Below, piece after piece: positions 4,851 through 57,270 of a DNA stretch of 64,000 bases (the first letter of the stretch is position 1; each line of letters begins with the position of its first letter). The position numbers and the translations under genes were made by a program. This stretch comes from Balanoglossus misakiensis (Eukaryota; Animalia; Hemichordata), in NCBI GenBank assembly GCA_040954595.2, contig CM082598.2, positions 744,001-808,000 on the forward strand, given 5' to 3'. The notes under the pieces were generated by a model. It did not search any database, was not told the origin of the DNA, and was given only the letters and a program-made list of their open reading frames with translations.

Positions 4851-7800
4851 ATGAAGACGGACAGATACTGGACATCATTTCTGCTTTCCGTAATTTTTGT
4901 GTCATTTTCTGGTTGTGATGCTATAAACAGACCAGCTAACATCGTTTTCATAATGGCCGACGACATGGGCTGGAATGACATCGGCTATCACAATCCAACC
5001 ATGAAAACACCAAATTTAAACAAATTAGCCGAGGAAGGTGTCAAGTTGCATAGTTATTACATGCCGTCTATATGCACTCCGTCGCGTAGCGTCTTTTTAA
5101 CAGGAAGATATGAGGTAAGTTTACCACGTGACATTTCTACATTTTTTACTTCCACTTACCAGCAGACTCAAATTCACATTTCGTGCTGCTATGACAATGA
5201 CCTTTGCCAATATCATCAAAGACAATACCTAGCAATGACAATGCATTACAGTTGTCATGATTCCCATAACAAATTTTGTATTATACAGTCATTTGTATGG
5301 AAGAAACTACTGCTTCATGCCTCTGGGGCAGTTTAATAATAAGTTAATGATGTAAATATGAACTTAATATGAAATATCGTTGGCAGGGTAACCTGTGAGC
5401 ATTCTAAAACTGGTAGAGATCTATATAAATATTTTGATGGCATGATTAATACAATGATAATTACAACCAGATGTGAATTTAATGAGCTTTAGTGTTTATA
5501 AAATGTAATGTGCTCCAATTAATGTATGTATGTTTATGATCTCATCAACTCAACTTATATCTGATATCCTCTTATATAGATTCGCTATGGATTGCAACAC
5601 GGTGTCTTGGGACACTATCAGCGACGTTGTCTGTCGACTGAAGAGACAACGTTTGCTGAAAAATTGCAACAAAAAGGGTACTCTACTCATCTTGTTGGAA
5701 AGTGGCATCTTGGGTTTTACAAAAATGGTTGTTTACCAAGACAAAGAGGGTTTGACTCGTTTTTTGGTAAGTACATAATTCATATTTTTGTTTTGGATAA
5801 TCTACAGTATATGTATGCAATTATTCCTAAATAATTTCAATTGTGTGATGATAACATTTAGGCGGAAACAAAATACTTTGGCGCATTTTTTGTCATTTTG
5901 TATGTGATGATACGTTTTGCACCCAGCAGTAAATTATAAAATGATTGTCTCTTTAGCATCCAAAACATTTTATGATAAAGAGTTTGACTGTCTTCTGAGA
6001 GTGCAGATGTTCCACTTGCAACCAAACAAACAGGAACGATAAATGCCCGAAGGGCAACTGTTGGATGAATGTGTTGATTGTATCCTGTAATTCGGTTGCA
6101 GTGCGTTTCAGCGGGGATTGAGAACGGCTTACCTTACACTGGTTTAAGCAGGGGGATTATTTTGGAACAGCTGGTCATGCACTGAATGCTTTCTTCTTCA
6201 TCGATTCTAATGCCCTGGATTGAAATATTTGCTGCAGGATTCATGTTTTAAGTCAACATATTTCAGTTGTCTTGCGATTAAATATCCATCCATAGGGTAT
6301 ACATACCAAAATCACTTTAAATATTTACATTGAAGTGACAATATAATGTCTATTTATAAAAGTGTTATTTCATACTGTTTTCCCAATTAGGTTTCTATCT
6401 GGGTGCTGAAGATTATTTCAATCATGACTCAACCATGCAAGGACATCATGGTTATGACTTTAGACGTAACGAGGAAGATGTATCACAAGAATATTTAGGA
6501 CAATATTCAACTCATCTGTTTGCTGCTGAGGCACAGGAGATCATCAGAAACCAAGATCCTAACAAGGTAGTACACTGATCAATTAATGCACATATAAATT
6601 GCACAAGGACTGTAACAAAGTGGCCACTATATACCAAGGTGACCACTATATAGAGCTGGCCACTATATAGAGCTGGCCACTATATAGAGGTGGCCACTAA
6701 CACAAGTTTGACTGTTCTGTAATATATTATTTTCGTTATTTGTTTTTCACACAAATCAAACGAAAAATATTTGTTCTCCATCTCTTTGCAGCCACTGTTT
6801 CTGTTTCTGTCTTTCCAATCTGTCCACATGCCTCTACAAGTACCTGAGAAATATGCTTCCCTCTATGATGGTGTTTATGGTTCCCATGACGACTGGAGGA
6901 CCTATGCGGGCATGGTAACGTGCATGGATGAAGCCATTGGAAACGTTACCCGAACTTTGAAAGAGTCGCCTCTATGGGAAAACACTGTTCTTATCTTCTC
7001 AACAGGTAAACTGCAAAATCAAACTTTAACAGTCATACTCATCTGTGATCATTCGGGTTAATTTGTTGTCATAATAAAATGTTTAGACACTCGTAGTACA
7101 GTGCAGAAAACAATTAAAAACAAAGCAGCAAACGTGCAAGACATATAGTGCAATTCATGACTGATATATATGGACTTGATTTTTTGCAAATTTATGAAGT
7201 GACATCAGGTGTTTTGAAAAGAGTGAGCAAACCATGCACTTCTCACAGACTGCTATATAATTTGTAATGGAAGGCTACATACTGGTATGTTAATGATTTT
7301 CAGATAATGGAGCTGATGCCAAGTTTATTGGCAGCAACTTCCCACTGCGCGGAGCCAAAGCCACGTTGTTTGAAGGCGGTGTCCGTGGTTTAGGATTTGT
7401 CACAAGTCCGTTGTTAAGTCCTGATGTCGTTGGTAAAACCAATAGAGAGCTTCTTCACATGAGTGACTGGTTTCCAACGTTTATGCATCTTGCTGGTGGT
7501 GGTGATACTGCTTTGGATAAACCATTAGATGGCTTGAACCAGTGGGAAACAATTAGGTAATGGTTCTAATAATTCTCTGCCATGTAAATGACTTTTATGC
7601 ATGGTCACTGCCATCTCACAAGACAGAAATGTCAAGTTGGGCACTTTTCCCCCATGATTCACTATACAGTTGATGAAGCACTAGAATGCAACTTCCCCGC
7701 CGCCACTATTTTTGTCTGAGTTTGTAACACTGTGCGAGTAATACATAACGGAAATAGCTTTTCCTGAATAATTAAGCCAACTCAACCCTAGAACACATGT

Positions 7801-8558
7801 GAAAATCAGTCAGACAGAAGTTCCCCTTTAGTACATACACTGAAAGCATAAATTTCTTAAGGCATATTAACCATCCATTGAATATATTATTGTTTGTAAT
7901 TTTAGTGAAGGAAAGAAGTCACCAAGGCAAGAAATCTTACATACAATTGACACCTTAGCGCTGCGTCCAGTGGATCGTGGACGAGAAAAATTCTCAACAA
8001 ATCCTTACTTTGACGTATTTACATTGGCGGCTATAAGACTTGGTGATTGGAAATTACTGACTGGACCATCTGGTAATTAGAATATTCATATCACATGTCA
8101 TTTTGGCATTTATTACCATGGATATTAGTGGTGATCCAACCAATCAAAGGCTTTCAGTGGGTAGCCACATGAAAAATTGTGCCACCATGTGGTCAATTGA
8201 TGACTTGGACACATCATTTTAACTTTATTAGGGCATAAATGGAGAGGTGATTGAAATCCTTTAACAATTGTCTCTTCCTCTTCCAGGTAATGATAGTTGG
8301 ATACCTGCTCCAAATTCAAAATTCAAGCCATTCCACCCACAAAAGTTATACGGCAAAGTTGTACGTCTGTACAACATTGCCAAAGACCCATATGAACGTA
8401 AAGATGTCTCAGATCAAAACCCAGAGATTGTTATTGCATTGTTGAGGAGACTCGGAGAATTCAACAAAGACACCATCAAACCAACATATCCAGGGGTAAT
8501 TGATGTCATCTATGGCAATCCAGATGAACATGGTGGACTTTGGGCACCATGGGGATAA
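4851..8558 (+). CDS. Arylsulfatase B/I/J-like sulfatase, paralog 2, complete, 7 exons, 510 aa
   Basis: Exons 4851-5114, 5580-5766, 6391-6566, 6792-7005, 7304-7556, 7906-8072, 8287-8558 sum to 1533 nt in one frame. Motifs: signal peptide, [65 protein letters not shown] and terminal GLWAPWG. Confidence 0.95.
6618..6715 (+). repeat. Short tandem array, about 17-bp unit GGCCACTATATAGAGCT, about 5 degenerate copies (likely non-autonomous element remnant)
   Basis: Visible repeats in intron 3 of arylsulfatase 2, ending in TTTGACTGT. Confidence 0.75.
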
Positions 8559-9858: not shown

Positions 9859-12800
9859 ATGGCGTCTCCCATGAAACCTCCCGTACAAGCTGGGTTCACT
9901 GCCGAGCCAACAGCTCCTTTTCCGTGGCCAGGAACGAAGAAAGAAGACAGGGACGAGTCTCTGTTTGACAAAATGGCAACGATAGGTCGAAAAAAGAAAG
10001 TGAAAGAGGGTAAGTCATCGATTTTTCAGTCAAAATGTACAACTCTGTGAACGGGACGAAATTGCAGGAAATTCTTCAGACGATAAGTCATATACCACCA
10101 AATATGGTATAAGATGGTGCAGTACATGGCCTAAAATTTATCATAGCTGGGATATATCCGCATACGATGAATTTTGGTCAAGTTTGCGTACAAGTATCAA
10201 CAGACATGTCTCTGTGTTCGTAGCCTGTTCATTTCACATTCCAGCATTCATTCGAATGTAAACAAGTCCCATATATAATCTCAGTCACCCTGTGGTTGAT
10301 GGCTTATCAATCATGGACGTCCCATCGAATCGCAGTTTTTTTAATTTCAAAAACGCACTTAATCCGTTATGACAACATTTACTGACTGGCTATTAAACTG
10401 GCCATCATTTAAACTGTCTAAAACACTTGAGACATGTCTGGACCATCATCCATGAATGGGTCAAGTTACAACCAGTTGTTGGTACAGAGAGAGTTATCAT
10501 CTTTCAAAATCAGTAGTCACAGCTATTTTGGGTGTAGTCCAAAACTATAGTCAATATACATTACAAGAAGACATTTAGGCAAGAGATGACATTTGAGGAA
10601 AAAATTCTAACCTTAAAATATGATATAAAATAATACTCTGTTGCTTGGATACAGTGTTATATGACTCCCCCATACTGACTGAAATCTGAAATGTAAACAT
10701 TGAAAATAAATACTATGATTGATTTCAAGTGGATGTCAGTTATGATTATAAGCTGGTGTACTTTTTCTCAACTTTCACATTTTGATCAAGGGTGGTATCT
10801 GCAACATTTGATATCGTTTCAAAATGTTTGATAAGTATGTTGAGTGTTCAGTATAATATATAGATTTTTGGCACAGTCTCTGTGTGTAAAATGTGTTGTT
10901 ATTGACAGATATGTATTGAGCTTAAAGCAAAATTCCTAATTGAAATTCCACAATTTTCCCAACAGTCTCCGAACTTCAAGAAGATGGCAAGCATGCCATT
11001 GATTCACCTACATCAACACCAGCTGTTTCTCCAGAAATGGCGCCGGATGCATATAATCTTGGTAAGTACTGATCACTTTAGAATGAATTAGTGTCATCCA
11101 AGACTGAAAAACTATTTTATATTACACAAATATTAGATTATAACCTTTCAAAAACAAATGGTCCTGTTGGTATGATGTTATTTGGAATATGAAACATGTT
11201 CCAGAAAACAGCCAACAAAGACTGTGAAAATTTGTGAGAATTACTGATTGTTGGTGGCCTATCATTCTTATGAAGAGTAGATTTACTTTGCAGCTTGCTA
11301 TGGTTTCTCTGATTGTTAATGATTTAGTTTGATTTGATTTCAGAGGAGAATGAAGAAAGATCAATTATTGAGATTGAATCACGGGATGACTATAAACTTC
11401 AAGAGTTAATAACAGTAAGTAAAAGCCTATCAAATGATCTGAGAGGTTGGCTCATTAATCCAGTCGCCTATCTGTGATTGGCCTTTTAATTCTGTAAGTG
11501 ACCCATTGATCCTTCTTGTGGTTTGACAATGAAACGTTGATGATACTAGGCCCGTTAAACTGTCTGTGATTGGTCCAGTGAACCAGGCCTTTGATAGGGC
11601 AATGAAGTCCAAACTGTAATTGTTCTCCGATACCTTGTCAGTGATTGGTTGGTTTCAATCTTGTTCGTGTTGTTACAGGTGCTCCTTGATTGGATCAATG
11701 AAGAGCTGCAAGGCCACAGGATTATTGTCAAGGATATCGAAGAAGATTTGTTTGATGGACAAGTACTTGGCAAACTTTTAGGTAAGGAGATTAATTCTCT
11801 TCACATCTTGGAAATTCAGAAACATTGATTTTTTGCCACAATGTTGAAAAATCTATGTATGTATTAGAGTAGTGATTGCTATCATAAGAATTATTGCCAT
11901 GGTTGCAACGCCAGTTTCCATGCCATGGTTACGATGTTGGTGTCTATGGTTACACATCTGCCTGCCATGGCTACTGCACTGATTACCATAGCTACTGTAT
12001 TGTCATGACTACAGGATTGGTTGCAGCATCACAATGCAATCAGAAGAAAGTCAAAGGTTATAGGTTTTGTTGTACATTCACTGCATTATTTCATTCATCA
12101 AGATTATTAGGCTTTTTATTATTGGTATCCTAATGAATGTGTGATGTCTTTCAACAGAAAAACTTGCACATATTAAACTGGAAGTTGCCGAGGTAACACA
12201 GTCAGAGGCTGGACAAAAGAAGAAGTTGAAAGCAGTGTTGGACGAAGTCAATAGAATATTAAATCTACCAAGATGGCACCAACAGAAATGGAGTGTAGAC
12301 AGTGAGTTTCCAATCAGAACTAATCAAAGAGACTGTAGCTTCTGGCTGTTTTTTTAAGTGTTCATATCCTGTCAACAGCTATCTGTTGTTGAACTCAAAA
12401 ATGCATAATGAAATGTCCAGTTCATTGCTAGCTGATCAATACACCTTATATGTCTAAAGTTATTCTCGTCATTGTTGAACATTCAACTGAAATCCAGCTC
12501 ATTTCAAATGCATCAATAGTGAATAATATGCAGAGACTAATAGATGTGTTATGGATTTCCTACCAGGCATCCATTCTAAAAATTTGATTGCGATTCTTCA
12601 TCTACTGGTGGCCTTGGCGTTTCACTTCAAAGCTCCAATCAGAATCCCAGAACATGTTGCTGTACAGGTGGTAGTTTTGCAGGTATGTTTTTTTTTTATT
12701 GTGGATAGTCTGTAGTTTTATATTTAAAGGGAGGGGGTCGTCGCGCCACGTGGGTGTCCCCCTTGATGAGAATATGCCCTCCCATACCAGTGCAAACCCC

Positions 12801-15800
12801 ACTGCAGTCGCCACGACCTACTAGGATCTTCAGTTGCTGCCATGCCCAGTCTACACTACAGTTGGCTGCTTCGTTCATTCTAAGAATGATCTAATTTGTT
12901 GTGGATGAATTGTAATGTTTATAAACAAACGCGGCGCAACAACCCCTTCACTTTAACCCCTCCCCCCCCCTTATTTCCCTGTAAAAAGTCCAGTTGCAGT
13001 GAAGAACAATGGAGTTGACTAAACTATGTAATTTTTCTTATCATTGCAGAAGAAAGATGGTATGCTGCATACAAGACATGTAACCGAAGAAATCACATCC
13101 ACAAATGAGTAAGTACCACTGCCACTATTTATGCTTACAGTGCTAGGGGGGCACAGATTCAAACTGATATAATTTTGGAGTATGAAATTCATATAGCCAG
13201 TTCTAAGGGGTCAACATGTTAAGAATGCAAATGTTCTTGGTACAAATAGTAATCATATAAAGACCAATTCTTTGTACAAACTGAAAGCAGATGTATGTTG
13301 TTCAGTTTTGTAGTGAATTCATGATGACTGACAATTTAAGGCTATCATTTTGATTTTGTATTCACAGTGCAATAGGAGGCCGATTTGAGCGGGATGCGTT
13401 TGATACACTCTTTGATCATGCTCCTGACAAACTCAGTGTCGTCAAAAAGGTAAATAAAACTGTACTACGTTCAGGAGTTTGACAGACTGCAGTATTTGAT
13501 ATGTTTATTAGGGGCCTTGATGGCCTATATACAAAAGCTGAGGAAGCAAATGAAATCAATCGTGTTAAAAGTAATGCCTGTCATGTCTGTGTGCAGATAT
13601 GTTTAAATAAGTTGATAGCTACATTTAGAACATTTAATGCTGTAATGTGATAGGAGCTTAGAGATAGACTTTCTTGACCACTATTTGAATGATCTCAAAT
13701 TGGGCAAACACATGATGTTTAAAATGTTTGGTAGTGTATACATTGCAGTATTAAAAGGATGTTCATAATGTCTTTATTTTCAGTCGCTGATCACTTTTGT
13801 AAACAAACATCTCAACAAGATCAACTTGGAAGTTACAGACTTGGATACACAAGTAAGTTTTTTTTCACATGGTTGTTTTAATCACACAGAGAGAGAGAGA
13901 GAGCTGTAAGTTGATCCTTTGTGCCATTATTTTGTTTGTCTCTTGACGTTATTATCATTATTGTAATTCCAATAACATCCATGAACATCTCTGTTTTTTC
14001 CCCCAGTTCTGTGATGGTGTCTATCTGATTTTGCTGATGGGACTATTGGAAGGATATTTTGTACCACTGTACTGTTATCATCTGACACCAACAACGTTTG
14101 AACACAAGGTAGGAGTTGAATATTGTTCATCTTTAATATATGTTTATGAAAAAACTGAATGGTGTCATTCATGTTACGTTCAATCAAGTGTCTTTCTCCA
14201 CATTGTACTATAGAAGTATGTGCCGTGAGTCAAGGAAGGAATAAGTAATACCATTGCTTTGGTAGCAAACAAAGTCTTGAGAGATCTTGCAATGAGCAGA
14301 AATTCCAGGTGTAATACTTACCGTTTCGTTCTTTAGGGTGAGTCTGAACCCCACTCTGTACAATGTATGTTAAACTGTTGCCACTTTGATTTGTTATAGG
14401 TGCATAATGTACAGTTTGCATTAGATCTGATGCAAGATGCTGGACTTCCTAAAGCCAAAGCCAGGCCAGAAGGTAAGATGAAATCCATTCATAGATGCTG
14501 TTATTTCTTGTAGATGATAGTGGGATGTACAGAAGTTTGGTCACACACACGCACGCACGCACACACACACACACACATTCACACCCTTCCATCCATATTA
14601 TAACTCACCATGCAGCGAACCCTCGATCGTGATTCGTCAATACGCCGTCATGTGACCTTTAGTCATTTCGAACTGTTCCCGAGGGCATCAGTTCGATCGG
14701 TTTCTGCCCGGTACTGTTGCCCTGTCTTGATATAATTCCGTGTTTGGTGTGTTTTAAAACACATGATGACTGACATATTCGGGCAACAGTGTATTTTTGA
14801 AGACCTCGGGACTGCCAGTCACACCAAAACAGTCTGTTTTCCCTCGGGCTATGCCCTCGGGAAAATAAGACTGTTGTGACTAGCAGCGCCCTTGGTCATC
14901 AAAATACACTGTTGCCCTCATTGTCAGTCATCATGTGTATATTGTGTCCCTGTTCTCAGTTGTGTTGAGTGCTTGTGTCAGGACCTGAGTGATTGTGTCA
15001 TCCGTCAAGATGCATAATGATTGACAGTATTTCAGTTATGTAGCAAGTCAAAGTATTCTTTTCTACATCCACTATAAAGTATAATCCAGATAATTCAATG
15101 TAGCAGATATGATACAGACTCCACTATCCTGCAAATTTCCATCAAAGACCTGATGTGATATTTCGTACTTTCTTGTTTTCCTTTGTGTCATTCTTTCGTT
15201 AATTTCTTCCTTCCTTCCTTCCTTGGTTTCCATAGATATTGCTCAGCTCCATATCAAATCCACCATGAGAACCCTCTACAACATTTTCACCAAATATAAA
15301 CAACTGTCTTGAACTATGAACTTTGACCTACCCCTCTCTTTTACCAGGTTCATTTTTATCCTTTCTTTGCCTTGGTTCTTGCATGATCTATATTTCCACT
15401 TGTTTGCTTTTCATTTAGTTTCAAACCTTTTTACTCCACCTTTCCTAATAGTTACTACAAGCTGTAGATTTAAAAAAAAGTTAGTACAGTGAGAAATAGG
15501 GCTTAATAAGTAACCACTGAGTCTTGATGATTGTGATACGTGCATTTTGATCAGATAACACCTGCTCTAACCATGCAATGCAGCTTCTCAGTAGCCAATC
15601 AACATTAAGTAAGCGTGCACATGGCAGTATGATCTCTAAGTTATCAGTACAGTGACAAGTGAAACTCGTTGTAACACACCTCGTCCACTATTACCTGACC
15701 AGGCAACAGTTCTCACAACTGTTACCTGGAAACCATTTGCACATGGGCATACGTGATGAAACGTGCAAAGGAACGATGATTGACAAACCCATGCATAGAT

Positions 15801-16138
15801 AATGAAGTGTGTTACAAATCACATATTGACCTGCCATATTCAGGTGACAGCATGATATCTGTCTCCCTTCAGACTATTATAGGGCAACAGCTATATGCTG
15901 TTGCCCTCATGGCCAGTCAATATGTGTATACTATTTTGTAAATACTACCCTCTAGTAGAGCACCTATTAATCTGGCTGTCCACTACACTTTACTAATAAA
16001 TAACAGAAACCAAAACATTAATGATCTTTCTAAGATTTTATTTTTCTTATTTTCTTCACAGATGTGGTTAATCTGGATTTAAAGTCAACGCTGAGGGTTC
16101 TTTATAATCTGTTTACCAAATATAAACATTTAGGGTAA
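9859..16138 (+). CDS. PARVB: Parvin (alpha/beta-parvin ortholog, two calponin-homology domains), 12 coding exons, 380 aa
   Basis: Exons 9859-10009, 10966-11061, 11344-11414, 11679-11781, 12158-12301, 12567-12682, 13050-13108, 13368-13449, 13784-13852, 14007-14108, 14400-14472, 16062-16138 sum to 1143 nt. Motifs: TIGRKKKVKEV, VLLDWINEEL..RIIVKDIEEDLFDGQVL, ERDAFDTLFDHAPDKL, DGVYLILLMGLLEGYFVPL and DVVNLDLKSTLRVLYNLFTKYK. The symbol marks the family; one-to-one orthology to PARVA versus PARVB is not resolved. Confidence 0.96.
14545..14577. repeat. (CA)n/(CACG)n microsatellite
   Basis: cacacacacgcacgcacgcacacacacacacacac. Confidence 0.9.
14759..14938. mobile_element. Fold-back / MITE-like palindromic element in the last parvin intron
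   Basis: Terminal arms ACACATGATGACTGACA / TGTCAGTCATCATGTGT. Inner arms GGGCAACAGTGTATTTT / AAAATACACTGTTGCCC, AGTCACA / TGTGACT and TTTTCCC / GGGAAAA. Related sequence extends left to about 14600. Confidence 0.8.
15236..15312 (+). CDS. PARVB: Parvin alternative terminal coding exon 12a (duplicate of exon 12b at 16062-16138)
   Basis: Long pyrimidine tract and CATAG acceptor at 15235. Same phase and same 77-nt length as 12b. Encodes (D)IAQLHIKSTMRTLYNIFTKYKQLS*. Confidence 0.85.
15820..15930. mobile_element. Shorter degenerate member of the same fold-back family
   Basis: CACATATTGAC ... GTCAATATGTG arms with internal AGGGCAACAG ... CTGTTGCCCT. Shares CTGTTGCCCTCAT with the 14759 element. 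A further fragment lies near 1881-1906. Confidence 0.7.
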
Positions 16139-17028
16139 TTAATAGTATTAAAAAATAATATTACATTTATTTTCTATTTTCAAATTGAACTCATTACAAA
16201 ATAATTACAATGTGAATTTTGTGACATGTCTTCCAATACATCACTTTCAATCAAGGAAACGTTGATTATAATAAGATTGATTATAGTTATACTGATGATG
16301 GCTGTTACGTGTTTTATGAAGCAGTGAGATTGATCGATTGAGTCTGTCACTTATATCATCAATATTGTTAATATCAATGGATTTTGGATGCAGTATTAAT
16401 GAAAACACAGGCACAGTGTCAACAAGATGTCAAAAAATGAACGCTGCAATATTGTGACATGGTTTTTAGCTGTATATTGTAAAAGCAAATAACACTCAAT
16501 CAAATCTTGTTATCTATCCAATTACAAAATCAGAATGTTTTATATGAACACAAAACTGTCTCTGAGTATTCATTTCACGAAGCACTGCCTTAAAAAGAAA
16601 TTGCTTTTCAAGTAAAAAATATATTTTGCATTTTACTGTATTTATATAGATTGTGTAGAGTTAGAATTTTTACTGCACTTTCCAGCTGAAAAAATTCAAG
16701 CTCTCTGTTATTCTCCAGTATCATTACGTTCAGCCTAAGTCAAGTTTTATAATTAGACACTTGTAATATAGATAGATCGTATATCTTTATATTATTCTAT
16801 ATCCAATCATACTTATTTATCTTTAGTTATCTGTTATATTATTGATACAATCATGATATGATTGGCCAATCTTTGTTATGCATGCTCAATTTTATTTTTA
16901 TTTAGAAAAAATATAGACAATTTTTGTTATAGATGTTAGCATTTTCCTCATGTTGCTTTTTGTTGATGGCAGATATGCATCACCTATAAGCTGAGGAAAG
17001 ACAGTTATATATTTGAGTAGTATTTTTA

Positions 17029-17140
17029 TTTGATAATACATTTGTTTTCATTTGATATTATACATTTGTTTTCATATGATAATACATTTGTTTTCATTTA
17101 ATATAATACATTTGTTTCCATTTGATATAATAAATTTATT
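17029..17140. repeat. AT-rich minisatellite, 21-24 bp unit TTTGATAATACATTTGTTTTCA, about 4-5 copies
   Basis: Direct repeats visible downstream of the parvin stop codon. Confidence 0.75.
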
Positions 17141-19499
17141 TTGGTTTTATATAATCAATTTGTGTTGATGGGCGTGTATGTGTGTGTGAATCCCTTCTGT
17201 GAGAAATGGAGTCTGATAGATTGCATGGCATGCTGTGTTCTTACATAGGTGTTTGTGATTCGTCAGGTTTTAGGCAATAGGATCTAGAAACAGATGAACA
17301 CCAGGTGTAGAAAGCTAAAAGACTTCATCTTCCAGCTTGGGCAGTTACTGGTAAGCTTTTAGTCTATATAAATATAGCACACCTTTTCAGAGTTCCGCAA
17401 AGATCATCTTTGTTTTGTGATCTGATCTAGAGTGGCTGACAATGGAAAGTTCATAGTCAGACACCGTAAGTAATTTTCACCTAACAAAGAAATCTTTGCT
17501 GAATACTCCTTTCTGGGTTACTAGGGAAACAACCAGGTTTCATTATCGTCACTGTCTTAAGGCTTTCATTAATGGTTTCCATGGTTCAATGTTGTGTCAT
17601 GTTCCTGCAGTAAGGTGAGTCACTGTGTGTCGTTGGGGGCGCCAATACATGCCCAAGCTGCTCTTTGTCATATCTCCATCGTCCTTTGTGTCAGTTCGAA
17701 ATTGTCAGCCGTATACCTTTGCACGGAGTGTGGATGATTTTCTTGAGTCATCACCAGTGAGTTTGTTGAGTTAGTCGTGTGTTATATGGGCTGAGAGGGC
17801 ACACTGCTTACAGACGTAAAATTCACACAAAGCTTTTACCCTTGTACTGTTCCCAGCACTGGTTGTAATTGTGTGTCTTATTTCATAATTTGAAGAAAGA
17901 ACAATCGTGATAAATAAGTGATCTCGCGATACATAAATTGCTCTAAACCCAGGCCCTGATATGTTTATTTTACATGTTCAATGACACCATTGTTCTGCAT
18001 CTGCAGAAATCTACGAAAAATTTCCCAGGGAAGACAGTGGAGATCTTCCTCCAATCAAAAATTAACGTTAACGAGTTCACTTCACATTTTCCAACCAGGA
18101 AATCACTTGCATTCCAGTCATTGTCCATTCTGTATCATAGCAACCATCCGTGGCAACCATGCATAGCAACACAAATAATTAATAAACTCCTATAACATAC
18201 CAGGATATACTGTCAATCAAAGTCTGTCTTTCTCAAAAGGCCTATTGCTGTTTTCTTGTTGCTATGGAAACAGTTTTGTCATCTGTGTGACCAATATTAA
18301 AACTATATATTATGGAGTGTAATATGAATTCTAAGCTATCCCATCAGTCATTTCTGGTCGAAGTGCTCTTAGTCTTACTAGAGAGTTGAAATTTTTGAAC
18401 ATAACACAGAGAGGTTTACCTTAAAATAACAGCTGCTGTAAAATGGATAAACTATCACATATTGTAAAGGAAACTTCTAAAAAATCCAAATTATAAACGA
18501 CTCCATAAAATGTATCTCAAATTCAGTTCCTTTGATTGGCTGTAAAATTACGTTATTCTGCTCATCGAGACATGCTTAAATGCTCACTTCAGTGTTACAA
18601 CCAGCCCAAAAGTTAACGAACAAACTTGATTTCCATAAAGTTGTTTATGATTAAAACACTTCATTTGTGAATTATGACATTTAGTACCAAATTTTGGAAT
18701 CATTTCTCAATCCTCCGCTAATGTTCGTTTCAGAATTTGAATCGGTATCACTTTAATTAATTTGCTGACCTTAATCAATGAAGCCATGTGACCAAGCTGT
18801 GGTGCCTTTTGCCAACATTCCTTGAAACACCTACGGTGTTGCTTGGCAACCTGTTCAGTAATTAGCAGAGAAGTTGAGCTCTGAAACTGCTTTGTTTAAT
18901 AGCTGTAAATAAGTTCACATTCTCACTGGATATGAATGCTAGCAAATGTGTCATTTGCCTGAGATTAAAATGCAGAAATACTTCTGTTGGTGTATATGTA
19001 TATTTGATAATTTGTTTGCAAACATTTTCACAATGGGTTTCTTGGTCTGAATCCAGTCCCAATGGCTGAGCCCCTGTTTATGAAATTGGTCTCGAGTCAC
19101 GGACGAGAGCCAATAGTGTGAAAAGAGGTGTGAGGTTGAATGACTATTCGCCCACTGAGAAAATTGTTTCTGACATCCGCAACAATCTTTTTTTATTGCA
19201 CTATGATTGTTAATCCACTCCATGTTTCAACTTGCATGTGATGCAGTCTGATCTTCTGAAATTGTCATAATCAACAGACATGTGTTAATATTTTGCAAGA
19301 ACAAATTGTTTTAATAGCCCTTTGTCATCATGCATGGGACCATCGACTGTCTGTGATGGGACTTTCTTCACCAATAATTTCCAGGGTAGAATAAAGACCC
19401 TGTAAAAAGTTTTAGAGAGATTTATGTAACTTGACCGGATCGGTAGCATCTTCATATCTTTAAAACTATTGCGTGATGTGAATTGTCAAAGTATAATTG

Positions 19500-28200: not shown

Positions 28201-43407
<15,207 letters not shown>

Positions 43408-46041: not shown

Positions 46042-49000
46042 CTATATTTCCTCCATCTCCATGGCAACATCCCCAAGATGTTTATTTGTCAGGAAACTGT
46101 ATTTTGGTTGGTTCAAGGTGGCTTGGTAGATATGGGTTGGTAGGATTTCCCCAGGACATCTGTTAGGAGAAAATAAGTTTGTAAATAAAGCATGTTTGTA
46201 AACGTACGCTTTTCTGTCTAAAAATAAACATGAAACACAAATAATTGTTTACTCCTTTGAACTTTACCTGTTGTCTGTTCGATTGCCATGGGCAACAGCT
46301 TGTGCATCTCTCATCAGGTCATTCATAAATTCTACCATTGCCTGAAAAAACAAAACTTGTTTACCATTGTTTGTGGTGTAAAAAAATTCATGGCAGGCTA
46401 GGAAATTCCCCAGAATTCTTTGCAATAATCTTTGCCATGTTTAGAATCATGCATGCTCCCAAAAATTTAAGAATACTTACAGAAAGCAGCATTTCTTCTG
46501 TAACGGGTGCATAAGTATCTTTTGTAACCTCTATGGGAGGTAATTTCACGCCAATCTGTGAAATAAAACAAATTCTATGGCATTAAACTACCAGTATACT
46601 GTGTACTGCAGTATATAGTCTCGGTTACCCAGAAGCCTCTGCTTCTTCCTTTTCATGATGGTTGTTGCAGCCTCAAACATAAAAACAAAACATGCTGAGA
46701 AGTGCTAGACCTGCTAAAATTGTCTATAAATTGAAAAGAGAGAGAGAAGTGTGGTAAATAGTTTTCAAATATGGCCATATCATAATATCAAATGTTATAA
46801 ATGTCGACCATCATGCACCGCTGTGGTCTCAAGTCGGCCATCTTTGCCCGGAGAGGTTTCTACATGGTTTCCCCAGACCCTCTTTCTGGAGTGCCCAACG
46901 GAAGAAGCAGAGGGACTATGCAGTATACTGAACAGTATTACGTTCCCCTATATCTGAGCTTTCAGAAAATTCAGTCTATAGGGGTTTTCGGGCTTTGATG
47001 ATTGACACAAGCTACGATCTCTGAAAGCTACTGTGATTCAGCGTTCAGCTGACAAGCAACTCACCTCTCGACAAGCATTGTTCACAAACTCAGCGTGCGG
47101 TGTAGAAGGTAAGTACATCTGGACTGGTCCACTACTCTGTTCCACTTCTTGTTTTATCGTTATTTTATTTTCCGGGATATTCACCACATCCACCTCCATT
47201 TCTGCAGAGCCCTGTTGTAGTGTCGCCTGGATTTGCTCAGTGTTTTCCAGTAGTGTCTCACATGTTGTGAAGCTGGTTTCCGATAACCATCCTATTAAGC
47301 ATACAATAATATTTCAACCATTAATATCACTATCAATCATAATGTTGAGCTTTCTAACATAATAAACCTTCCTATAATTACAACAGTAAGACTTGCAATC
47401 ACGTGTACAGAGTTGATAATGTGACAATCTTCATAAACTCCTTTTTAAATTTCCACTAAAGCAATAAAATCTGTGCAAAAGAAAAAAGTAACGACTTACC
47501 ATTATCAGTCAGTAGATTTTGTTTACAGGTGTGATCTTCACTGTCTACTTCATCATCAGCATCTTCGCTCTCATCTTCTGCATCATTACTCTCATCACCA
47601 TCATCGTCGTCGTCATCACAACCATCACCAATTTCCATCTCTTTCTCCAAACGCTCCGTTATCTCTTCAGGATCACTTATCCTTTTCTCCGATTTGACCT
47701 CGCCACAAATCTCACAAAACACTCTTTGAATATCAGCTGTGGATGACACAGTGTTTCCATGTTACTCATCGTTGTTAGGGGCAACGCAACTCATCCATAA
47801 TCTGAGCTGTGATTCGCTAATGTGCAGTCACAAGGTGGGGGGGGGGGGGGCAACAGGTCTGAAAACTGTTGCCTTGCTAAGTACACATTGTAAACCCTGC
47901 TGCTGCATTTTTATCATTTTCATACATTTTTTTCTGTCTTTTAAACTTCTCACTTAGAGTGACACATCAATAATTAAATCAAACATGGAACACTGCATTT
48001 TCTGTCTGTATGCAAATGAAACAAGCAAAACCCATCATGAAATTCTCATCGATAAATAAAAGTTGCTATAGTTTATCTTACCTTTATCTGACACACTGTA
48101 ACCATGTCTTCTGCACCATACCATAATCCGTTTCACACTCCACGCATCAGTTTCTGGCCATTTCCCAGACAATTTGATAATTTCTAGGATTATCTTTCTG
48201 ACTTTTGCAGCTCTCTGCCATTCTGCGGATCTCTGTTTGCCAACAGACCATCCTCCATATTGTTCCAATGAAGTCGCACAGTACGGGGACTCATGTTGAA
48301 CTGAAGGAAAGAATATCAAATTGACAAATTAACGGTAGGAACTTATAAACCAATTAATTACCTATTTTATATAAACACGTAATTTCACTGGTAACATTAG
48401 CAGGCTGCCGTTCTTAATGAAAGAAGAGACCAAACAGAAACATGTAATGAATAAATTAACAAATCAGCACTAAAATAAAAAGATAGTACATGTATAATAT
48501 GTTTAAATAAAAATTCTTACCTCTGTCTTTCTTAATCAGTGGATTCCTTTTGACAAGATAGCTCACTAATTCTTCCATGGATGAAATCTTATCAATGCTG
48601 AAAAGTCAAATAAGAAAACATGAGTTATAAGTTGCTAACGACTTTAAGTTGTGCATTTGTCGCCAACGTTTGAAAATTTTCCTGTGGCTACACTTTTACA
48701 TAAGTTGCTTTTCATTTCAAATCATGGTATCACAGCTAATAGGGCTTTAACATTCTTACTGATAATCTACAATGTGTAGCTCTGTGTTACCCACCTGATT
48801 GCTGTAGTTGTAGCTAGGCAACCAACTTCAAGCTTTCTTTCCGCAATGTTGACTGGTAATCTTGGACCAATCAGGGTCGTTGTTGGCTTGGTTGTCCTGG
48901 CAACCTTGGCAGTGGGTACATTCAGCAGGGATATCTTGGAAGCTCCTGTCTGTTCACTTGTCTGGATGGCCGATGATACAGGTCTGAGGAATGGCGCTGG

Positions 49001-52000
49001 TTTGGTAAGTTTTATCAACTGTGGAGTCGTTTTTCTCTCAGTGTTATCACTTTCCGCAGATTTCGTTGTCACTGGTTTGATAGTGTGTACCACTGGTTTG
49101 GTTAGCACTAGTTTAGTAGCAACGGGTTTGCTACCCGATGTAGCAACAATACTCCTGGCTACAACGTTAGGAATAATACTTGCCCCGGTTGCAGACGGCG
49201 TGATGTGTTTTATCATGGTAGTGGCACCGCCAATCACAGCTGTCGATCCCTGGTTATCAATATTTATCGTTGTTGTTGGCTGGTTACCAATAGTCATTGC
49301 TGTTGTTGGCTGGTTAGCAGTGGTAATAGATGTCTTTGGCTGGTTGCCGGTGCTTATAGCTGCTGTTGCTTGGTTCGTGAGACTGATAGCAGTTTTCGGG
49401 ATGAGTGATGTTGGTGATTGTGTAGACATAGCTATGGTGCCAAGATTTGCTGGAAGTCCACTGGCAGGAGTCAATTGAACTGTTGTTCTTGTAACAGCTG
49501 GTGGAGAAGCAATTGTCCTCTGAGATCCACTCGCTACAGTTTTAGTTGTGACTGTCTGTGGCTTGGATACCGGAATGGTCTGCTGGATTTGCACGATACT
49601 GCCGGGCTGGATTCCAGGAATATTGGCTCCTTGTGGTATCAAGATGACATTCCCAGGTGGTATTGGGAACGCTCCTCGAACCTGAACAGTTTGACCTCTG
49701 CCTGCAGCTGCCTGACCTCTCACCTGTTGACTTTGAACTTTGCCCTGTGGTACTGGTGTAGCTATTCTTTGGATTCCTGTAGTTGTTTTCCCGGTTACAA
49801 TCTGACTCGGAGCTGCTAGTCTCTGTATCTGTGTGGTACTTCCGCGAGGTCTGACAGGTTGAGCTGTGATTTGCTGTGCGACTGGTGCGACTAAACGTTG
49901 TCCAGTGGCCTGCACAAGAGCTTGGTGAGGTATTAAAATCATCTTGCCTTGTAAATTAGGATCTGTTGACTTTGCTGCTATGAAATACTGAGTCCCCATG
50001 GCAACACCTGGTGCGGCCATGGTAACACCTGTCGGCATGGCAATAGCTGTAGGCATGGCAACTTGAGGCCTTGGTTGCGGTGACTGGATGATGGTTGCTT
50101 GACTTTTGACATTAGATGTTGGTGATGTCACTTCCATTTTGATGCCGGGTCTTGTTGGCGTGGCGACAGTACTTCGAGGTAAAGATAAACCAGGCGTAAG
50201 TTTGACTACTGGTGAACTCTGTGGTGGTTGTTGAGAAATTACAATGTTTTCACTTTTTGTGGTCGGAATATTTCCAGGTGACAACAAACTGCAACCTACA
50301 GTCTGTCCTGACATTTCCACTTTGCCCTGATTGATTCGAACCTTGGTTGTCATGCCACCGGTTGCTGTGGTAACAGGTAGGCTGCTTGTTGTTGGAGTTG
50401 TTTGGGATGACAGCATGACAAAGCTTCCTGGAGAGCTGACGGATTTTACAGGGTTGATCTTAGCTTGTTGTGTCTGTGTAATATTTAACTTTGGTTGTGG
50501 TAATGGTGTTACACCACTGAGATTAGTCTTGGCAGTTGTTGTAACAGCAGCAGTAACACTAACACTGTTTGAATTATTCTTGGAAGAGCTGATTGGACCC
50601 AATGGTGGCATTGACAATGTTCCAGTTGATGTGGTTACCATGGATGTTGTTGTCTTGGGAACAACCTTTGACCCATTTTGTCCTGCTGTATTCACAGACT
50701 CGTTTAAGCTTGACGGTTGTACCTTAGATCCAGGGGTTTTGATCTTAGGGCTGCAAAGTTGTTGTGCGGCTGCAATCCTCGCTGCGATTTGCGCTGCAGT
50801 TAGAGGCTGAGATGCAGCAGCATCACTGGAAACATCCTCTGCTTCATCTGTGGACTTTGCACCTTGCGACTGCGAATGCTGAATTGTTGTTTCTTCTATA
50901 CAACTTTCTGTTTTACCTTCTGTGTCATTGGATGGTATGGGCGGTTTCGTGTCAGCGTTGTCTCTTTCCTCTACTGAGTATCTGTCTAGTTCTACGTCCA
51001 CAACCTGAAATTGTAACAATACCATTTAGACATTTTCTTTAATGTCAGGTTCAATGAGGTAATAAATATCATACATGTACATCTAATGATCAAAAATTAA
51101 TGGGTTTTAGCAGAACACTTACTGTTTCAGCTCCAAGAGTTTGCAATCCTGTGTATGTCCTGTCAAGCTGAAATAAGAGTCAAAACAGAAATTAACTGAT
51201 GTGAAAGTTTCACATTTTATGTCAGCATGGCTATACTGACCAAACAGAAATTTGGAAATACTTGTGCAAATATTCAAACTAGTGCAAAGTTTACATAGCT
51301 AGTTAGACATCAAATATGTGCGATTAAAATGTCACTGACCTTCAGATTATGAATGATGTCCACTTTTTTGTTGCGTTGATCAACAAAATGTAGTTGAACT
51401 CTGACTGGAAACTCTCCCCATCCTCTCCTTGTCAAATGAAAAGGTGGCTCACTGAAATGAGAATGAGAAAAATTTATACCGAATGCAAAAATGTAACGTG
51501 ATGTACTGAGGTACATTGTTTCACCTAGCACAAAATTGGTGTGTGATACCAGTGTCTTCACAAATTCTGGGTACCTTTAAATCCAAATTGTTTGTTTTTG
51601 TTTTGTTTGTGTACTTAACCAAAGCATACACAAAATCAGTACAGGTATGATCAATTTAATATGCTTACTTACCTGACTTCAACAAGGTCGTTGGGTCTAT
51701 AACTTGGATGCAAGAAGAACCAAACTTTCTTCACAAAGTGGTCAATACGGGGTTCCTACAGAAATAATAATAAATCATTGATTCATTTATGACACAAAAA
51801 TCTTATTTATCACAAAGATCTTTTCACTGTCACTTTTTGACGAATTATAAGAATGATTGATATTCAAGAGTTTACTGTGAATAACTTTATAGTACAGTAT
51901 TTTTGATACAAAAGGCAAAACGGTCACTTAGGTTGTCTATTTAACAAAGGAAAATACTTTTTAACTGACCTCCAGGGGGCCTCTGACATAAACCATCCAT

Positions 52001-53522
52001 TTATGAGTTGATGGATCATTTTCTTCACGTTTGTCTGGAGCGATGTACCTGAGGAGAAAAATATTTAAAATTGTAAGTAATATGACAGAAATTCATGACC
52101 TCTGCGCACGAGCTGTGCCGTACAGAAGTTATTTTCACAAGTGAATGAAAACAGACGGTAGAATAGTGCTGGCTTGCCAACTGTACATCACCAACTCGGT
52201 AAGAAGTTCACAAATTAAAACTAACTTACTTGGATATGTTGCCGACAACAATTCTTTTCTTGACATGGAATCTTGAAGGTCCTGCAGTGGACGCAGCTAG
52301 AGATTGGGCAGACAGTGTTGTTGGAACAATGCCAAATGTGTCCTGAAATACAGCAAGAAAGCATGAAATATAAAACATCTAGACAGTGCTTAGAGAGAAA
52401 CACAGGCAAAAGGATCAAAGGGAAGTGATCGTCTTATGTCAATGTGCCACACCAGAGACTCTGGTTACAAGTGTGCTGTCCTAACAACAGACAATATGAT
52501 GGTGATCTGTGTCAGAGATCGGGAAAGACGATCGTGGCCAACACAACACAATACAATCTTCCAAGCTACGTAGCACTACATACGTTTCCCTGGTTACGAG
52601 GGCCTTTGGGTCCAGTTGGTTCCGTATCCATGGCATCTTTTGTGTCTATTTCCATGTTTTCATCTTCTGTACTGATGTGCCTTACAACATCCTGTTCCAT
52701 GTCAATGTTTAATGATTCCATGGAGGTGGCCGGTGTGGTCGCTGATGACTGTCCCAGTACTTTTTTAACAGCAGGATGCAGGTCCGATTTCTCATTTATG
52801 ATACCTTGTTTCTGATTCTGACAAATGAAATTACAACAACATGTAACTGGTTTAATCTATTGCACGGTATGTCTTGATTTAGAAATCACACATGTACAAT
52901 ATTGAAATTATGACAGCATGTCCTCTCAAAGTACCAGCTAAAGAAGAAGAGTGAAACCAAGAGAGTTTGTCAATTTGTAAATGCTTACCTCCCCGGTGGT
53001 CTGTTCCCCTGGCATCCCATAATATGTGGCCACCACGCAGGCTCTTAAACGATCCAGCATTGATCGAACTTGGTGAATTCTCTGAGGAAAGTCATAAAAC
53101 AAATGTTTTAATGAAGGTAATACACATCTTGAAAATCAAAGTGTTAAACTTTTGACATAAATATGGGCTATCGTTAACAATTCATAATTCAAAATCCGTC
53201 AGAAATCTTTGTCCTTACCTGATCAATAACCTCGATTTCCTTTTCCTTATTTTTCATTTCAACTACAAACTGTTGTTTGATAATGGTTTCAATTCTCTTC
53301 ACTGTGGCTTCTTTTGCTGCAAGATCAATAAAATATCTCACATTTGGTATCCTAACCATTGATTGCATTCCTTTTAAAAGAAACATATAAATGTCAAAAA
53401 GTGACTTGAAAGAAACATTTTCATGACTTACCACCTTCTTCAATAAGACGTTGACGTTTTCTCGGAGTGCCAGTATCCTGATAATCAGGGTCTTGATCTC
53501 CGACTTGATGCATACTTGCCAT
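46042..53522 (-). CDS. YEATS2: YEATS domain-containing protein 2 (ATAC complex acyl-lysine reader), 17 coding exons, about 1394 aa
   Basis: Exons 53522-53432, 53316-53219, 53081-52989, 52817-52584, 52342-52230, 52048-51970, 51755-51673, 51451-51340, 51167-51123, 51004-48795, 48597-48521, 48300-48082, 47736-47500, 47291-47065, 46555-46481, 46341-46268, 46159-46042 sum to 4185 nt in frame. N-terminus [38 protein letters not shown] domain [56 protein letters not shown]. Then a T/S/Q/P-rich linker, [18 protein letters not shown] and terminal FLTNKHLG. Confidence 0.94.
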
Positions 53523-54059
53523 TGTGATGTAATTTTGATACTCCTACTGATAGCACCTGGTGAGTAGATAGATTTTGGAGCTAGTAAGCAGTAGAATTTT
53601 ATGATGTACACCTTACAAGAAATGCACAGATGGGCTTGTACAAACAACAACACAGCTTCAGAGAAAACCTAGTAGACATCATATAAACACAATGATAATT
53701 GCAAAAAATATTCTAAACTGACCCTTGACCATTCTCTAAGCTTGGTTAATATTTTTCATCAATTACACTACCAACAACAATGTGATTATAACCCTCTCTA
53801 TAAACAATAACATCCTTCTGGCCATTACCTAGGCAACGACTACCCCTCATCCTAAAAGTTGATTTCATAGGCAGATTCATATAAGGCAGATTTACCAAAG
53901 GCAGATTTACCAAGGGGGGTATTCTGCTGATAATTTTACAGAATCTTATATTTTAAGATACATGTACATAGATACACAAATTATTATTTTTCATCTCTCT
54001 GAGAGAGGGCGTACTGCTCAGCTTGATCTTGAACGATCAAGGTCACGGTAATGTTTGTT

Positions 54060-54430
54060 ACAAGAAAGACTCCAAAACACAGCCAGTAAAATTGCGAGTT
54101 GCATTTAGTTTGATGTGGTAAAGACAGCGATCTCTCGATCGACGGGCTACAGTCTGGATACGGTTAATAGATCCTTGTCTGCAAAGCTTGCAGGGAACCC
54201 CCACACCCAACCACCACGAACTTCCACTCACGATCACAAATGTGTACTGCAAAGAAGAGGTAGGCTGCGAAAAATGCAGTACATGTAGTAGGTTTCGTAC
54301 ATGCATAGACTGAACACCTGAGAAACCTACCAGATCTGCTCAAAATATCAATGGAATTCCAGCGATCTTCGTGAAAGTCTAGAGTCCTTGTTATATTTAT
54401 GTGGAAGTCGCCATGTTGGATGCGACCCTC
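54060..54430 (-). other. Probable YEATS2 non-coding 5' exons
   Basis: CCAACATGGCG (YY1-like) near 54414, donor CTG|GTAGGT at 54331 and acceptor CTCTTCTTTGCAG at 54247 (84-nt intron). The ATG-containing exon begins with an acceptor at 53556. Confidence 0.5.
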
Positions 54431-55700
54431 TAACTGTTTCATTATAAACAAAGCTTGTGGCGTTGGAGGGCAGAGGTCAAGATAATGTCAAGAGGTGGAC
54501 GAAATGGACACATTGGACCAGAGTTTCATTTCTTGTGTATTAACCATGTCTCATTACACATATGTTCTTTTCACACTATGCTTCGAGAAGCGATTCGCCA
54601 TCACCTTCTCTCAAACATTACAAGGAGTTAATTTATTGATAAAACACCACTGACATTAATTGATTAAATTGTTTTCGGGGTGTCAGTCTGGTTTCAAAGC
54701 GAACATGCATCATTGCATGACAATTCCATTTTGAAGTCCAGATGTAAACTATTTTTGTGTTTCAATGCATTTTAATAAAGGCCACATGGTGTAATACAAA
54801 ACGTGGTGTTTGACTGTTTTCGTCCCCTTCAAGTTGCTGACTGACTAATTCCATCTTGCCAAGAGCTAAAGTTAAAACTACTTTCGTTCTCTAATGTCAG
54901 ATAGGCGCACGGCTACATAAAAAAAGAGAAAAGTATTTTTCCATTCAATTTTTCGTGGCAAATTCTTGAGTTTTGCACATTGCAGAAAATGGGCCCCTAA
55001 TTATTGTTATTTACTAGTATCTATTTTTGTTGCATATTTAGATATTCTCCTATCGATAGCAAGAATATTTGCATATAAGAAACGTGGCATTTTGTCATTT
55101 CTAAGATGATTTGAGAGTGAGTGAATGAGTGAGTCATGTCATACACTAGATAGTGGGCTGTAAACGCGACAGGTAGTTCCATGCACGCGTGGCACCAGTT
55201 TTTGGTCATGGTCATGAGGCTTAGAATAATCACAAAACCTGGTGATTCAGTTTACTGAGGTTGAATCACCCTGGTCGGCCCCTACAAAGGTCATTTAAAC
55301 GGTATTTGCGGTAAACCTCAGGTTGAACTAATATTTTACAGGGGGCGCGTTGAAATATACATGCATTTCATTGCTATGTTGTTTTCATTCGGTCGATCAG
55401 ATGAATCAAAGAAGATTTGTGCCACCTTATGTGACCTTTTATTGTCACTGTGTGTGAAGGTGTCGATAAAAAAGTAGCTGGGTCTGTGTGTGATTTGCAT
55501 GCGAATGTATTCCCAGTGTTGGGAAAGGCCCGACGCCATTCATGAATGTCACTGAAGTTGCTTGGGCAACAGTGATTGGTCTACGATGACATCATGAGCT
55601 AGTTCGTTCTGGCCTGCTCTGATTGGTCGCCCATGACGTAATTTACTATTAATGGAAAGTGATCTCATCGCCTGGTTTACGAGATGATGTCCGCTAGATC
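54430..55700. promoter_or_regulatory. Divergent promoter region YEATS2 / DUSP
   Basis: AP-1 TGAGTCA at 55130, ATTGG boxes at 55575 and 55622, CRE-like TGACATCA at 55587 and TGACGT at 55634. CpG-rich downstream sequence with a donor G|GTAAGT at 55946. Confidence 0.55.
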
Positions 55701-57078: not shown

Positions 57079-57270
57079 ATGGCGGAAAAACTTGCAGAAA
57101 CACCGAAGATGCTTCGATCAAACAAGCTAGCAGAGCTACTACAGACGAGCATGGACAAAATTCTGGTCATCGATAGTCGATCCTTTCTTGAATACAACAC
57201 TTGTCATGTGCACAATTCTGTCAATGTGGGCTGCTCAAAATTGATTAAACGTCGACTGCAACAAGATAAG
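57079..57270 (+). CDS. DUSP16: Dual-specificity MAPK phosphatase DUSP8/DUSP16-like, first coding exon (rhodanese/kinase-docking domain); the rest lies beyond the window
   Basis: MAEKLAETPKMLRSNKLAELLQTSMDKILVIDSRSFLEYNTCHVHNSVNVGCSKLIKRRLQQDK then donor AAG|gtaagg at 57270. It matches the LIDSRxFxEYN..CSKLxKRRLQQDK signature of DUSP8/16. There is an in-frame upstream ATG at 57022. I recognised no second exon before 64000. Confidence 0.88.

What the first reader, a model, noticed from the sequence alone, without database searches (positions are those of the whole stretch)
15236..16138. Parvin has two duplicated alternative terminal exons that swap the last CH2 helix
Seen: exon 12a (15236-15312, DIAQLHIKSTMRTLYNIFTKYKQLS*) and exon 12b (16062-16138, DVVNLDLKSTLRVLYNLFTKYKHLG*) have the same length and phase and intact acceptors. 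They are 15/25 identical in protein, and 10 of those 15 shared residues use different codons, which points to an old duplicate with both copies constrained. Known: this segment is the terminal helix of CH2, the domain that binds ILK and paxillin LD motifs. From memory, 12b is close to the vertebrate beta-parvin C-terminus. Inference: one gene makes two CH2 variants with different ILK-PINCH-parvin or paxillin binding, diversifying by splicing what vertebrates diversify by paralogs. I do not know of this being described.
Basis: partly seen in the sequence, partly recalled or inferred. Interest (0 to 1): 0.8.

Follow-up and report, generated by a model that had tools for sequence, protein, structure and literature searches.

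The report
Ancient alternative last exon in parvin
Acorn worms, sea urchins, sea stars and a brittle star carry a second, duplicated last exon in the cell-adhesion gene parvin that replaces three residues almost unchanged in other animals, likely giving them a second parvin that still joins adhesion complexes but is predicted to be tuned differently.

Summary
Observation confirmed. The window holds a 12-exon parvin gene, 353 of 380 residues identical to acorn-worm (Ptychodera) parvin, with two 77-nt terminal exons: 12b (canonical) and 12a. 12a is constrained (differences from 12b at codon positions 1/2/3: 9/3/17; neutral simulation P 4e-4). RefSeq lists both ends as isoforms in 7 of 12 named hemichordate and echinoderm species examined, one of them frameshifted. 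All 12a ends carry Ala/Gly350, Gln351 and His353 (alpha-parvin numbering), where 209 of 210 other parvin ends have Val, Asn and Asp. None was found in the amphioxus, vertebrate, mollusc or arthropod proteins sampled. It is probably one duplication in the ambulacrarian ancestor; the tree tests are mixed. The published paxillin contacts in this segment are unchanged, the ILK contacts I could read lie in shared exons, and vertebrate alpha and beta parvin both look like 12b. The change sits in the turn between helices F and G. No RNA was available for this organism, and the structure predictions failed. This is a new member of a known class (tandem-duplicated C-terminal exons), annotated in databases but not found in the papers searched.

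The parts
9859..10009 (+). parvin coding exon 1 (ATG)
   Evidence: best-scoring GT-AG model, 353/380 identical to P. flava XP_070542635.1
10966..11061 (+). parvin exon 2
11344..11414 (+). parvin exon 3
11679..11781 (+). parvin exon 4 (CH1)
12158..12301 (+). parvin exon 5 (CH1); query that found the hemichordate and amphioxus parvins
12567..12682 (+). parvin exon 6
13050..13108 (+). parvin exon 7 (linker)
13368..13449 (+). parvin exon 8 (N-linker helix and start of helix A: most of the paxillin site)
   Evidence: PMC2572193
13784..13852 (+). parvin exon 9 (CH2)
14007..14108 (+). parvin exon 10 (CH2, C/E loop with ILK contacts G305-P309 equivalents)
14400..14472 (+). parvin exon 11, last shared exon (ILK salt-bridge region E332-D336 equivalents); phase-1 donor
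15150..15235 (+). acceptor region of 12a: 86-nt AG-free zone, 22-nt pure pyrimidine run of TTCC repeats, branch-point-like words at 15150 and 15199
   Evidence: a regulatory role is untested
15236..15312 (+). alternative terminal exon 12a (derived type: Ala350, Gln351, His353, Gln370), stop TGA
15995..16000 (+). only AATAAA between 12a and 12b; candidate poly(A) signal of the 12a mRNA, overlapping a TACTAAT word at 15991
   Evidence: use as a signal is untested
16062..16138 (+). terminal exon 12b (canonical type), stop TAA

Best explanation
This hemichordate-type parvin gene has two homologous last exons, likely born in one tandem duplication in the ancestor of hemichordates and echinoderms and likely spliced as alternatives, so that one gene makes a canonical parvin (12b) and a second form (12a) predicted to keep its paxillin and ILK sites while rebuilding the turn between helices F and G of CH2. 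Shown: the exon pair, purifying selection on 12a, annotated isoform pairs in relatives, and the residue pattern. Inferred, splicing: exon 11 joins either acceptor 15236 or 16062. A 12a mRNA would then end at a poly(A) site before 12b or carry 12b in its 3' UTR; neither needs a downstream intron, so it would escape nonsense-mediated decay. Inferred, protein: V350A, N351Q and D353H remove the Asn/Asp of the F-G turn, including the residue just before helix G, next to L354 and K355, which hold the N-linker helix. The most likely effect is a tuned adhesion adaptor, with shifted stability or N-linker position (hence paxillin affinity) or a changed third surface, used as a minor, probably tissue-restricted isoform. 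Odds: functional alternative exon about 0.93; single ambulacrarian origin about 0.85; effect through the F-G turn with both main partners still bound about 0.55.
For: Gene model and phases. Third-position bias and neutral simulation. RefSeq X1/X2 pairs identical except for the last 25 aa in P. flava and G. talaboti; the window's 12a is 23/25 and 19/25 identical to their X2 ends. 12a-type ends in Strongylocentrotus purpuratus, Lytechinus pictus, Acanthaster planci, Asterias amurensis and Amphiura filiformis, each beside a canonical isoform. Of 225 ends classified, 15 are 12a-type, all ambulacrarian; the other 210 have V350, N351 and D353 in 209 of 210 each, and 0 of 46 further proteins carry Gln351 or His353. 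The seven 12a ends group in the tree with support 97.6/97. Helix F is 346-350 and helix G is 354-368 (PMC2572193). K355, R359, Y362, F365 and K369 are kept in 13 of 13 in-frame 12a ends.
Against: No reads for this organism; expression rests on RefSeq models, whose reliance on RNA-seq is recalled, not checked. 5 of 12 named ambulacrarian species (Patiria miniata, Asterias rubens, Lytechinus variegatus, two Diadema) showed no 12a isoform in the clusters read, and the Amphiura 12a model goes out of frame after 11 residues. Overall identity of hemichordate 12a to echinoderm 12a (14-17/25) is no higher than to 12b ends (14-17/25). A tree forcing hemichordate 12a and 12b together was not rejected (AU p 0.18), and the alignment has only 24 columns. 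12a evolves faster than 12b. I saw no study of residues 350-353, and the complete ILK interface list was not available.
Confidence: 0.6

Rival explanations
1. 12a switches a main partner off or on: the 12a form binds ILK or paxillin very differently, perhaps acting as a dominant-negative or ILK-free parvin.
For: The exon supplies all of helix G, which forms part of the paxillin site and holds the N-linker helix. L354 and L358 vary in hemichordate 12a (Ile/Val/Thr; Met), and position 370, next to R/K369, is Gln in 13 of 13. Three near-invariant residues are replaced, so the effect may be large.
Against: The direct LD contacts Y362, F365 and R/K369 and the salt-bridge residues K355 and R359 are invariant in 12a. 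The ILK contacts read are in shared exons.
Confidence: 0.2
2. 12a is mainly a regulatory exon: its use lowers parvin output (poison exon spliced on to 12b, or an unstable mRNA or protein) and the protein form matters little.
For: Donor-like GTRAG words lie downstream of the 12a stop at 15489 and 15609; using one would put the stop far upstream of a junction. The Amphiura model is frameshifted, and 5 of 12 species show no 12a isoform.
Against: A poison exon needs no conserved peptide, yet Gln351, His353, the helix-G core and the frame are kept across two phyla, with third-position bias.
Confidence: 0.08
3. Hemichordates and echinoderms duplicated the exon independently and converged on Ala-Gln-x-His.
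For: A hemichordate 12a+12b clade is not rejected (AU p 0.18); overall identities are uninformative.
Against: It needs the same three rare replacements twice at sites otherwise fixed in 209 of 210 ends. The two-duplication tree is rejected (AU p 0.014), as is an echinoderm-only clade (p 0.01).
Confidence: 0.08
4. 12a is a decaying, unspliced duplicate and the RefSeq isoforms are prediction artefacts.
For: No direct splice evidence was obtained here, and RefSeq XP records are models.
Against: Neutral simulation P 4e-4, pS saturated against pN 0.27; conserved in seven other species.
Confidence: 0.04

Closest known systems
Tandem exon duplication-derived substitutions, C-terminal class (77 of 236 human events; PMC8373072, PMC9741552; passages read)
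   Same: Duplicated 3' coding exon giving homologous alternative C-termini; ancient; core residues kept and surface residues changed.
   Different: 'parv' does not occur in either main text (supplements not checked). This event was seen only in hemichordates and echinoderms and lies inside a globular domain, not in a tail.
Vertebrate alpha- and beta-parvin CH2 (PDB 2VZC, 3KMU, 4EDL; PMC2572193, parts 1-3 of 6 and passages read)
   Same: Two CH domains (Pfam PF00307), N-linker helix, paxillin contacts; 12b is 22/24 identical to the beta-parvin end.
   Different: Both paralogues are 12b-type at 350, 351 and 353. The parvin review (PMC2792345, passages) names only N-terminal isoforms.
RefSeq 'beta-parvin-like' isoforms of ambulacrarians, e.g. 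XP_070542645.1, XP_077999819.1, XP_011672788.1, XP_022102658.1, XP_071791976.1
   Same: The same alternative end, already present as automatic annotation.
   Different: Unnamed and uncharacterised; no paper on it turned up.
Actinin-family duplicated exons (listed in PMC9741552 for vertebrates, arthropods and nematodes)
   Same: CH-domain cytoskeletal adaptor diversified by alternatively spliced duplicated exons.
   Different: Those are internal mutually exclusive exons (recalled); here a terminal exon swaps helix G of a type-5 CH domain.

Membership tests
Parvin family | Variable N-terminus followed by two CH domains | tested here: met
   Pfam CH, two stretches, in both isoforms of four species; window model 353/380 identical to P0001
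Parvin family | Type-5 CH2 with N-linker helix and its helix-G contacts (L354, K355, L358, R359) | tested here: met
   Sequence level only; K355 and R359 are invariant in 12a, L354 and L358 are mostly conservative
Parvin family | Binds ILK and paxillin LD motifs | not testable with these tools
Tandem exon duplication-derived C-terminal substitution | Two adjacent homologous coding exons of the same phase | tested here: met
Tandem exon duplication-derived C-terminal substitution | Each transcript uses one exon or the other as its coding end | tested here: inconclusive
   Annotated so in 7 of 12 named relatives; no reads for this organism
Tandem exon duplication-derived C-terminal substitution | Both copies under purifying selection and conserved across species | tested here: met
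   cross-species dN/dS not computed (no DNA of relatives)
Tandem exon duplication-derived C-terminal substitution | Choice coupled to alternative polyadenylation | not testable with these tools
   Candidate AATAAA at 15995 only
Functional equivalent of the vertebrate alpha/beta paralogue split | The two ends differ where alpha- and beta-parvin differ | tested here: not met
   Alpha and beta differ at 349, 352 and 369 and share V350, N351, D353; 12a differs at 350, 351 and 353

The most novel reading that the evidence does not exclude
Ambulacrarians invented a second parvin whose invariant His353, in place of the otherwise fixed Asp at the start of helix G, works as a switch (pH- or metal-sensitive, or a docking site for a new partner). 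It would reposition the N-linker helix and let one cell type, such as muscle or nerve, regulate its integrin adhesions in a way no vertebrate parvin does. The F-G turn would then be an unrecognised third functional surface of every parvin CH2.
Probability: 0.17. Interest if true: 0.72.

Novelty: new member of a known kind. Interest (0 to 1): 0.5.

Why it matters
Parvin's last 25 residues are among the most fixed in the animal adhesion machinery (V350, N351 and D353 each in 209 of 210 ends sampled). A variant that two phyla have kept since their split, over 500 million years by my recall, is a natural experiment on what the F-G turn of CH2 does, a spot for which I found no functional study. It is directly testable by putting the three changes into human parvin or comparing the two sea-urchin isoforms. 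It also offers a molecular character for Ambulacraria. The kind of event is common, and the isoforms already sit unremarked in RefSeq, which limits the surprise.

Tried and rejected
RNA evidence: no RNA holder listed for 13700-17200, so no reads were laid. No whole genome is held, so I could not check for a second parvin gene or get DNA of relatives for cross-species dN/dS. Structure prediction: AlphaFold2 with the same 27-row alignment for P. flava 12a and 12b left CH2 at pLDDT about 32-71 in both. Both models were 15-19 A rmsd from the solved CH2, so they are uninformative; the fused helix F+G in the 12a model against a broken one in 12b is not used as evidence. No complex prediction was sent: no ILK or paxillin sequence was at hand. 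A search with the last 40 residues of the 12a isoform found only 2 cluster representatives, both 12b-type; the 50% library gave 47 hits, none 12a-type. Both searches see representatives only, so absence outside Ambulacraria is a sampling result. Clusters were read in part: oyster 15 of 18, shark 15 of 49, one unnamed cluster 15 of 32. 14 of 239 proteins were left out of the tally as fragments or unmatched ends; one is a canonical end that the pattern missed and one a shark isoform with an unrelated short end. The 210 canonical ends are redundant (43 distinct 22-mers). The tree used 26 rows and 24 columns and left out the frameshifted Amphiura 12a and duplicates. Splicing-factor motifs: one TGCATG at 15380 against 1.0 expected; the TTCC run is a single microsatellite; 12a's 86-nt AG-free zone is shorter than exon 10's 94. 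None of this shows tissue regulation. Literature: (search listings) gave nothing on this exon. Fukuda 2009 and Stiegler 2012 were not held. Supplements of the tandem-exon papers were not read. Earlier scan notes had nothing on this exon.

Full report
Observation. Each is 77 nt, follows an AG, continues the phase-1 donor at 14472 and stops at the same codon. They share 15 of 25 residues (10 by different codons) and 47 of 77 nt, while the 60-nt flanks match at chance level. With 11 shared GT-AG exons from 9859 to 14472, either end gives 380 residues. No third copy lies in the window.

Constraint. Differences between 12a and 12b fall 9, 3 and 17 on codon positions 1, 2 and 3; pS is 0.81 (saturated) and pN 0.27. 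Scattering the same 29 changes at random over 12b gave an open frame with 14 or more of 24 identical residues in 0.04% of 200,000 trials. This compares paralogous exons, not orthologues; DNA of relatives was not available.

Relatives. Exon 5 found Ptychodera flava, Glandiceps talaboti and amphioxus parvins; the window's protein is 353/380 identical to the P. flava one. Both hemichordates have RefSeq X1/X2 pairs that differ only in the last 25 residues, X1 like 12b and X2 like 12a. The window's 12a matches the X2 ends at 23/25 and 19/25; 12b matches X1 at 25/25. Echinoderm clusters hold the same pairing in Strongylocentrotus purpuratus, Lytechinus pictus, Acanthaster planci, Asterias amurensis and Amphiura filiformis, the last going out of frame after 11 residues. 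Patiria miniata, Asterias rubens, Lytechinus variegatus and two Diadema species showed no 12a end, so 12a is annotated in 7 of 12 named ambulacrarian species. That RefSeq isoform models rest on RNA-seq is recalled, not checked, and no RNA run was listed for this window.

Signature. Of 239 proteins fetched, 225 had a classifiable end. Fifteen are 12a-type and all are ambulacrarian. In alpha-parvin numbering (fixed by the PDB alignment), the 13 in-frame ones have Ala/Gly350, Gln351, His353 and Gln370. The other 210 have Val350, Asn351 and Asp353 in 209 of 210 each, though they are redundant (43 distinct 22-mers). All 22 amphioxus proteins, 3 lamprey proteins and the shark, mollusc and arthropod clusters read lack the signature, as do 46 of 46 further proteins. 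These searches see representatives and annotated isoforms only.

Origin. In a 26-row, 24-column tree the seven 12a ends form one group with support 97.6/97, and a tree with separate duplications in the two phyla is rejected (AU p 0.014). Under looser constraints an echinoderm-only clade is rejected (p 0.01) but a hemichordate-only clade is not (p 0.18). Overall identity does not separate the options. The case for one origin rests mainly on three shared replacements at otherwise fixed sites.

Where the change sits. Lorenz et al. (PMC2572193; parts 1-3 of 6 and passages read) place helix F at 346-350 and helix G at 354-368, so the exon covers the end of F, the F-G turn, all of G and the tail. 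Paxillin LD motifs contact Y362, F365 and R369 of this segment; the N-linker helix packs on L354, K355, L358 and R359. K355, R359, Y362, F365 and K369 are kept in 13 of 13 in-frame 12a ends. The ILK contacts I could read are G305-P309 (PMC8591738, part 1 of 4) and E332, L333, Q335 and D336 (bioRxiv 10.1101/2021.03.30.437490, passages), all in shared exons. The primary interface papers were not held, so this list may be incomplete. A peptide-array site for syndecan-4 on rat beta-parvin (322-353) runs into this segment (PMC12447578, passages), which is a lead only. Alpha- and beta-parvin are both 12b-type at the diagnostic sites, so the paralogue analogy fails at the residue level.

Mechanism. 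Shown: exon pair, constraint, conservation and residue map. Inferred: exon 11 is spliced to one of two acceptors; the 12a mRNA ends near the AATAAA at 15995 or runs through 12b as 3' UTR. Inferred: the 12a protein stays in the ILK-PINCH-parvin complex and binds paxillin, but loss of Asn351 and of Asp353, which from its position would cap helix G, shifts stability, the N-linker helix or a third surface. Tissue restriction is a guess from the class; motif counts gave no support. Both AlphaFold models failed to fold CH2 and say nothing.

Comparison and novelty. Duplicated last exons giving homologous C-termini are a known class, with 77 human cases (PMC8373072 and PMC9741552, passages); neither main text mentions parvin. 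The parvin review passages name only N-terminal isoforms. Searches listed no paper on this exon; the library lacks most subscription journals. An unchecked earlier scan note reports an optional duplicated exon in ILK of lophotrochozoans, a possible parallel that I did not test.

Verdict. Real, old and constrained; already present as unnamed RefSeq isoforms; a new member of a known kind, with a sharply defined and testable substitution. Interest 0.5.

Noticed in passing
window 14759-14938 and 15898-15930: An inverted repeat in intron 11 (arms pair at -54 kcal/mol). Its 5' arm can also pair with a partial copy between 12a and 12b (-39), the second-best partner among 3198 windows scanned, which would loop out 12a. 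Short related pieces occur at 1882-1905 and 13320-13335, so it may be just a dispersed repeat; conservation untested.
   Followed up: partly
window 34589-40742 (+); protein P0183: A TEAD gene (TEA and YAP-binding domains) lies downstream of parvin on the same strand. An oyster gene model fuses parvin to a TEAD-like sequence, and human PARVA lies beside TEAD1 (recalled), so this looks like an old gene neighbourhood. One paper was listed for it, not read.
   Followed up: partly
P0159, P0154, P0156, P0150 (alignment A1, columns 305-315): Sea urchins have an optional 11-residue insert in the CH1-CH2 linker that combines freely with both last exons. No matching exon was recognised in the window's intron 7.
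   Followed up: partly
P0004 against P0003 (alignment A1, columns 234-244): Amphioxus parvins have an optional 11-residue insert in CH1 that repeats the preceding Trp-x-x-x-Lys-Trp-Ser pattern, like a partial exon duplication.
   Followed up: no
P0152, P0153 (Amphiura filiformis): The 12a-type end is normal for 11 residues and then reads like a one-base frameshift; assembly error or real loss is unknown.
   Followed up: no
window about 4926-8500 (+): A multi-exon gene just upstream of parvin that looks like an arylsulfatase (first exon translated; family name recalled, not scanned).
   Followed up: no
window 47000-54500 (-) and 57022-57330 (+): A minus-strand gene with a 752-aa low-complexity exon, resembling YEATS2 (recalled; no Pfam hit on the one exon tried), and a rhodanese-domain exon like that of a MAP kinase phosphatase.
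   Followed up: no
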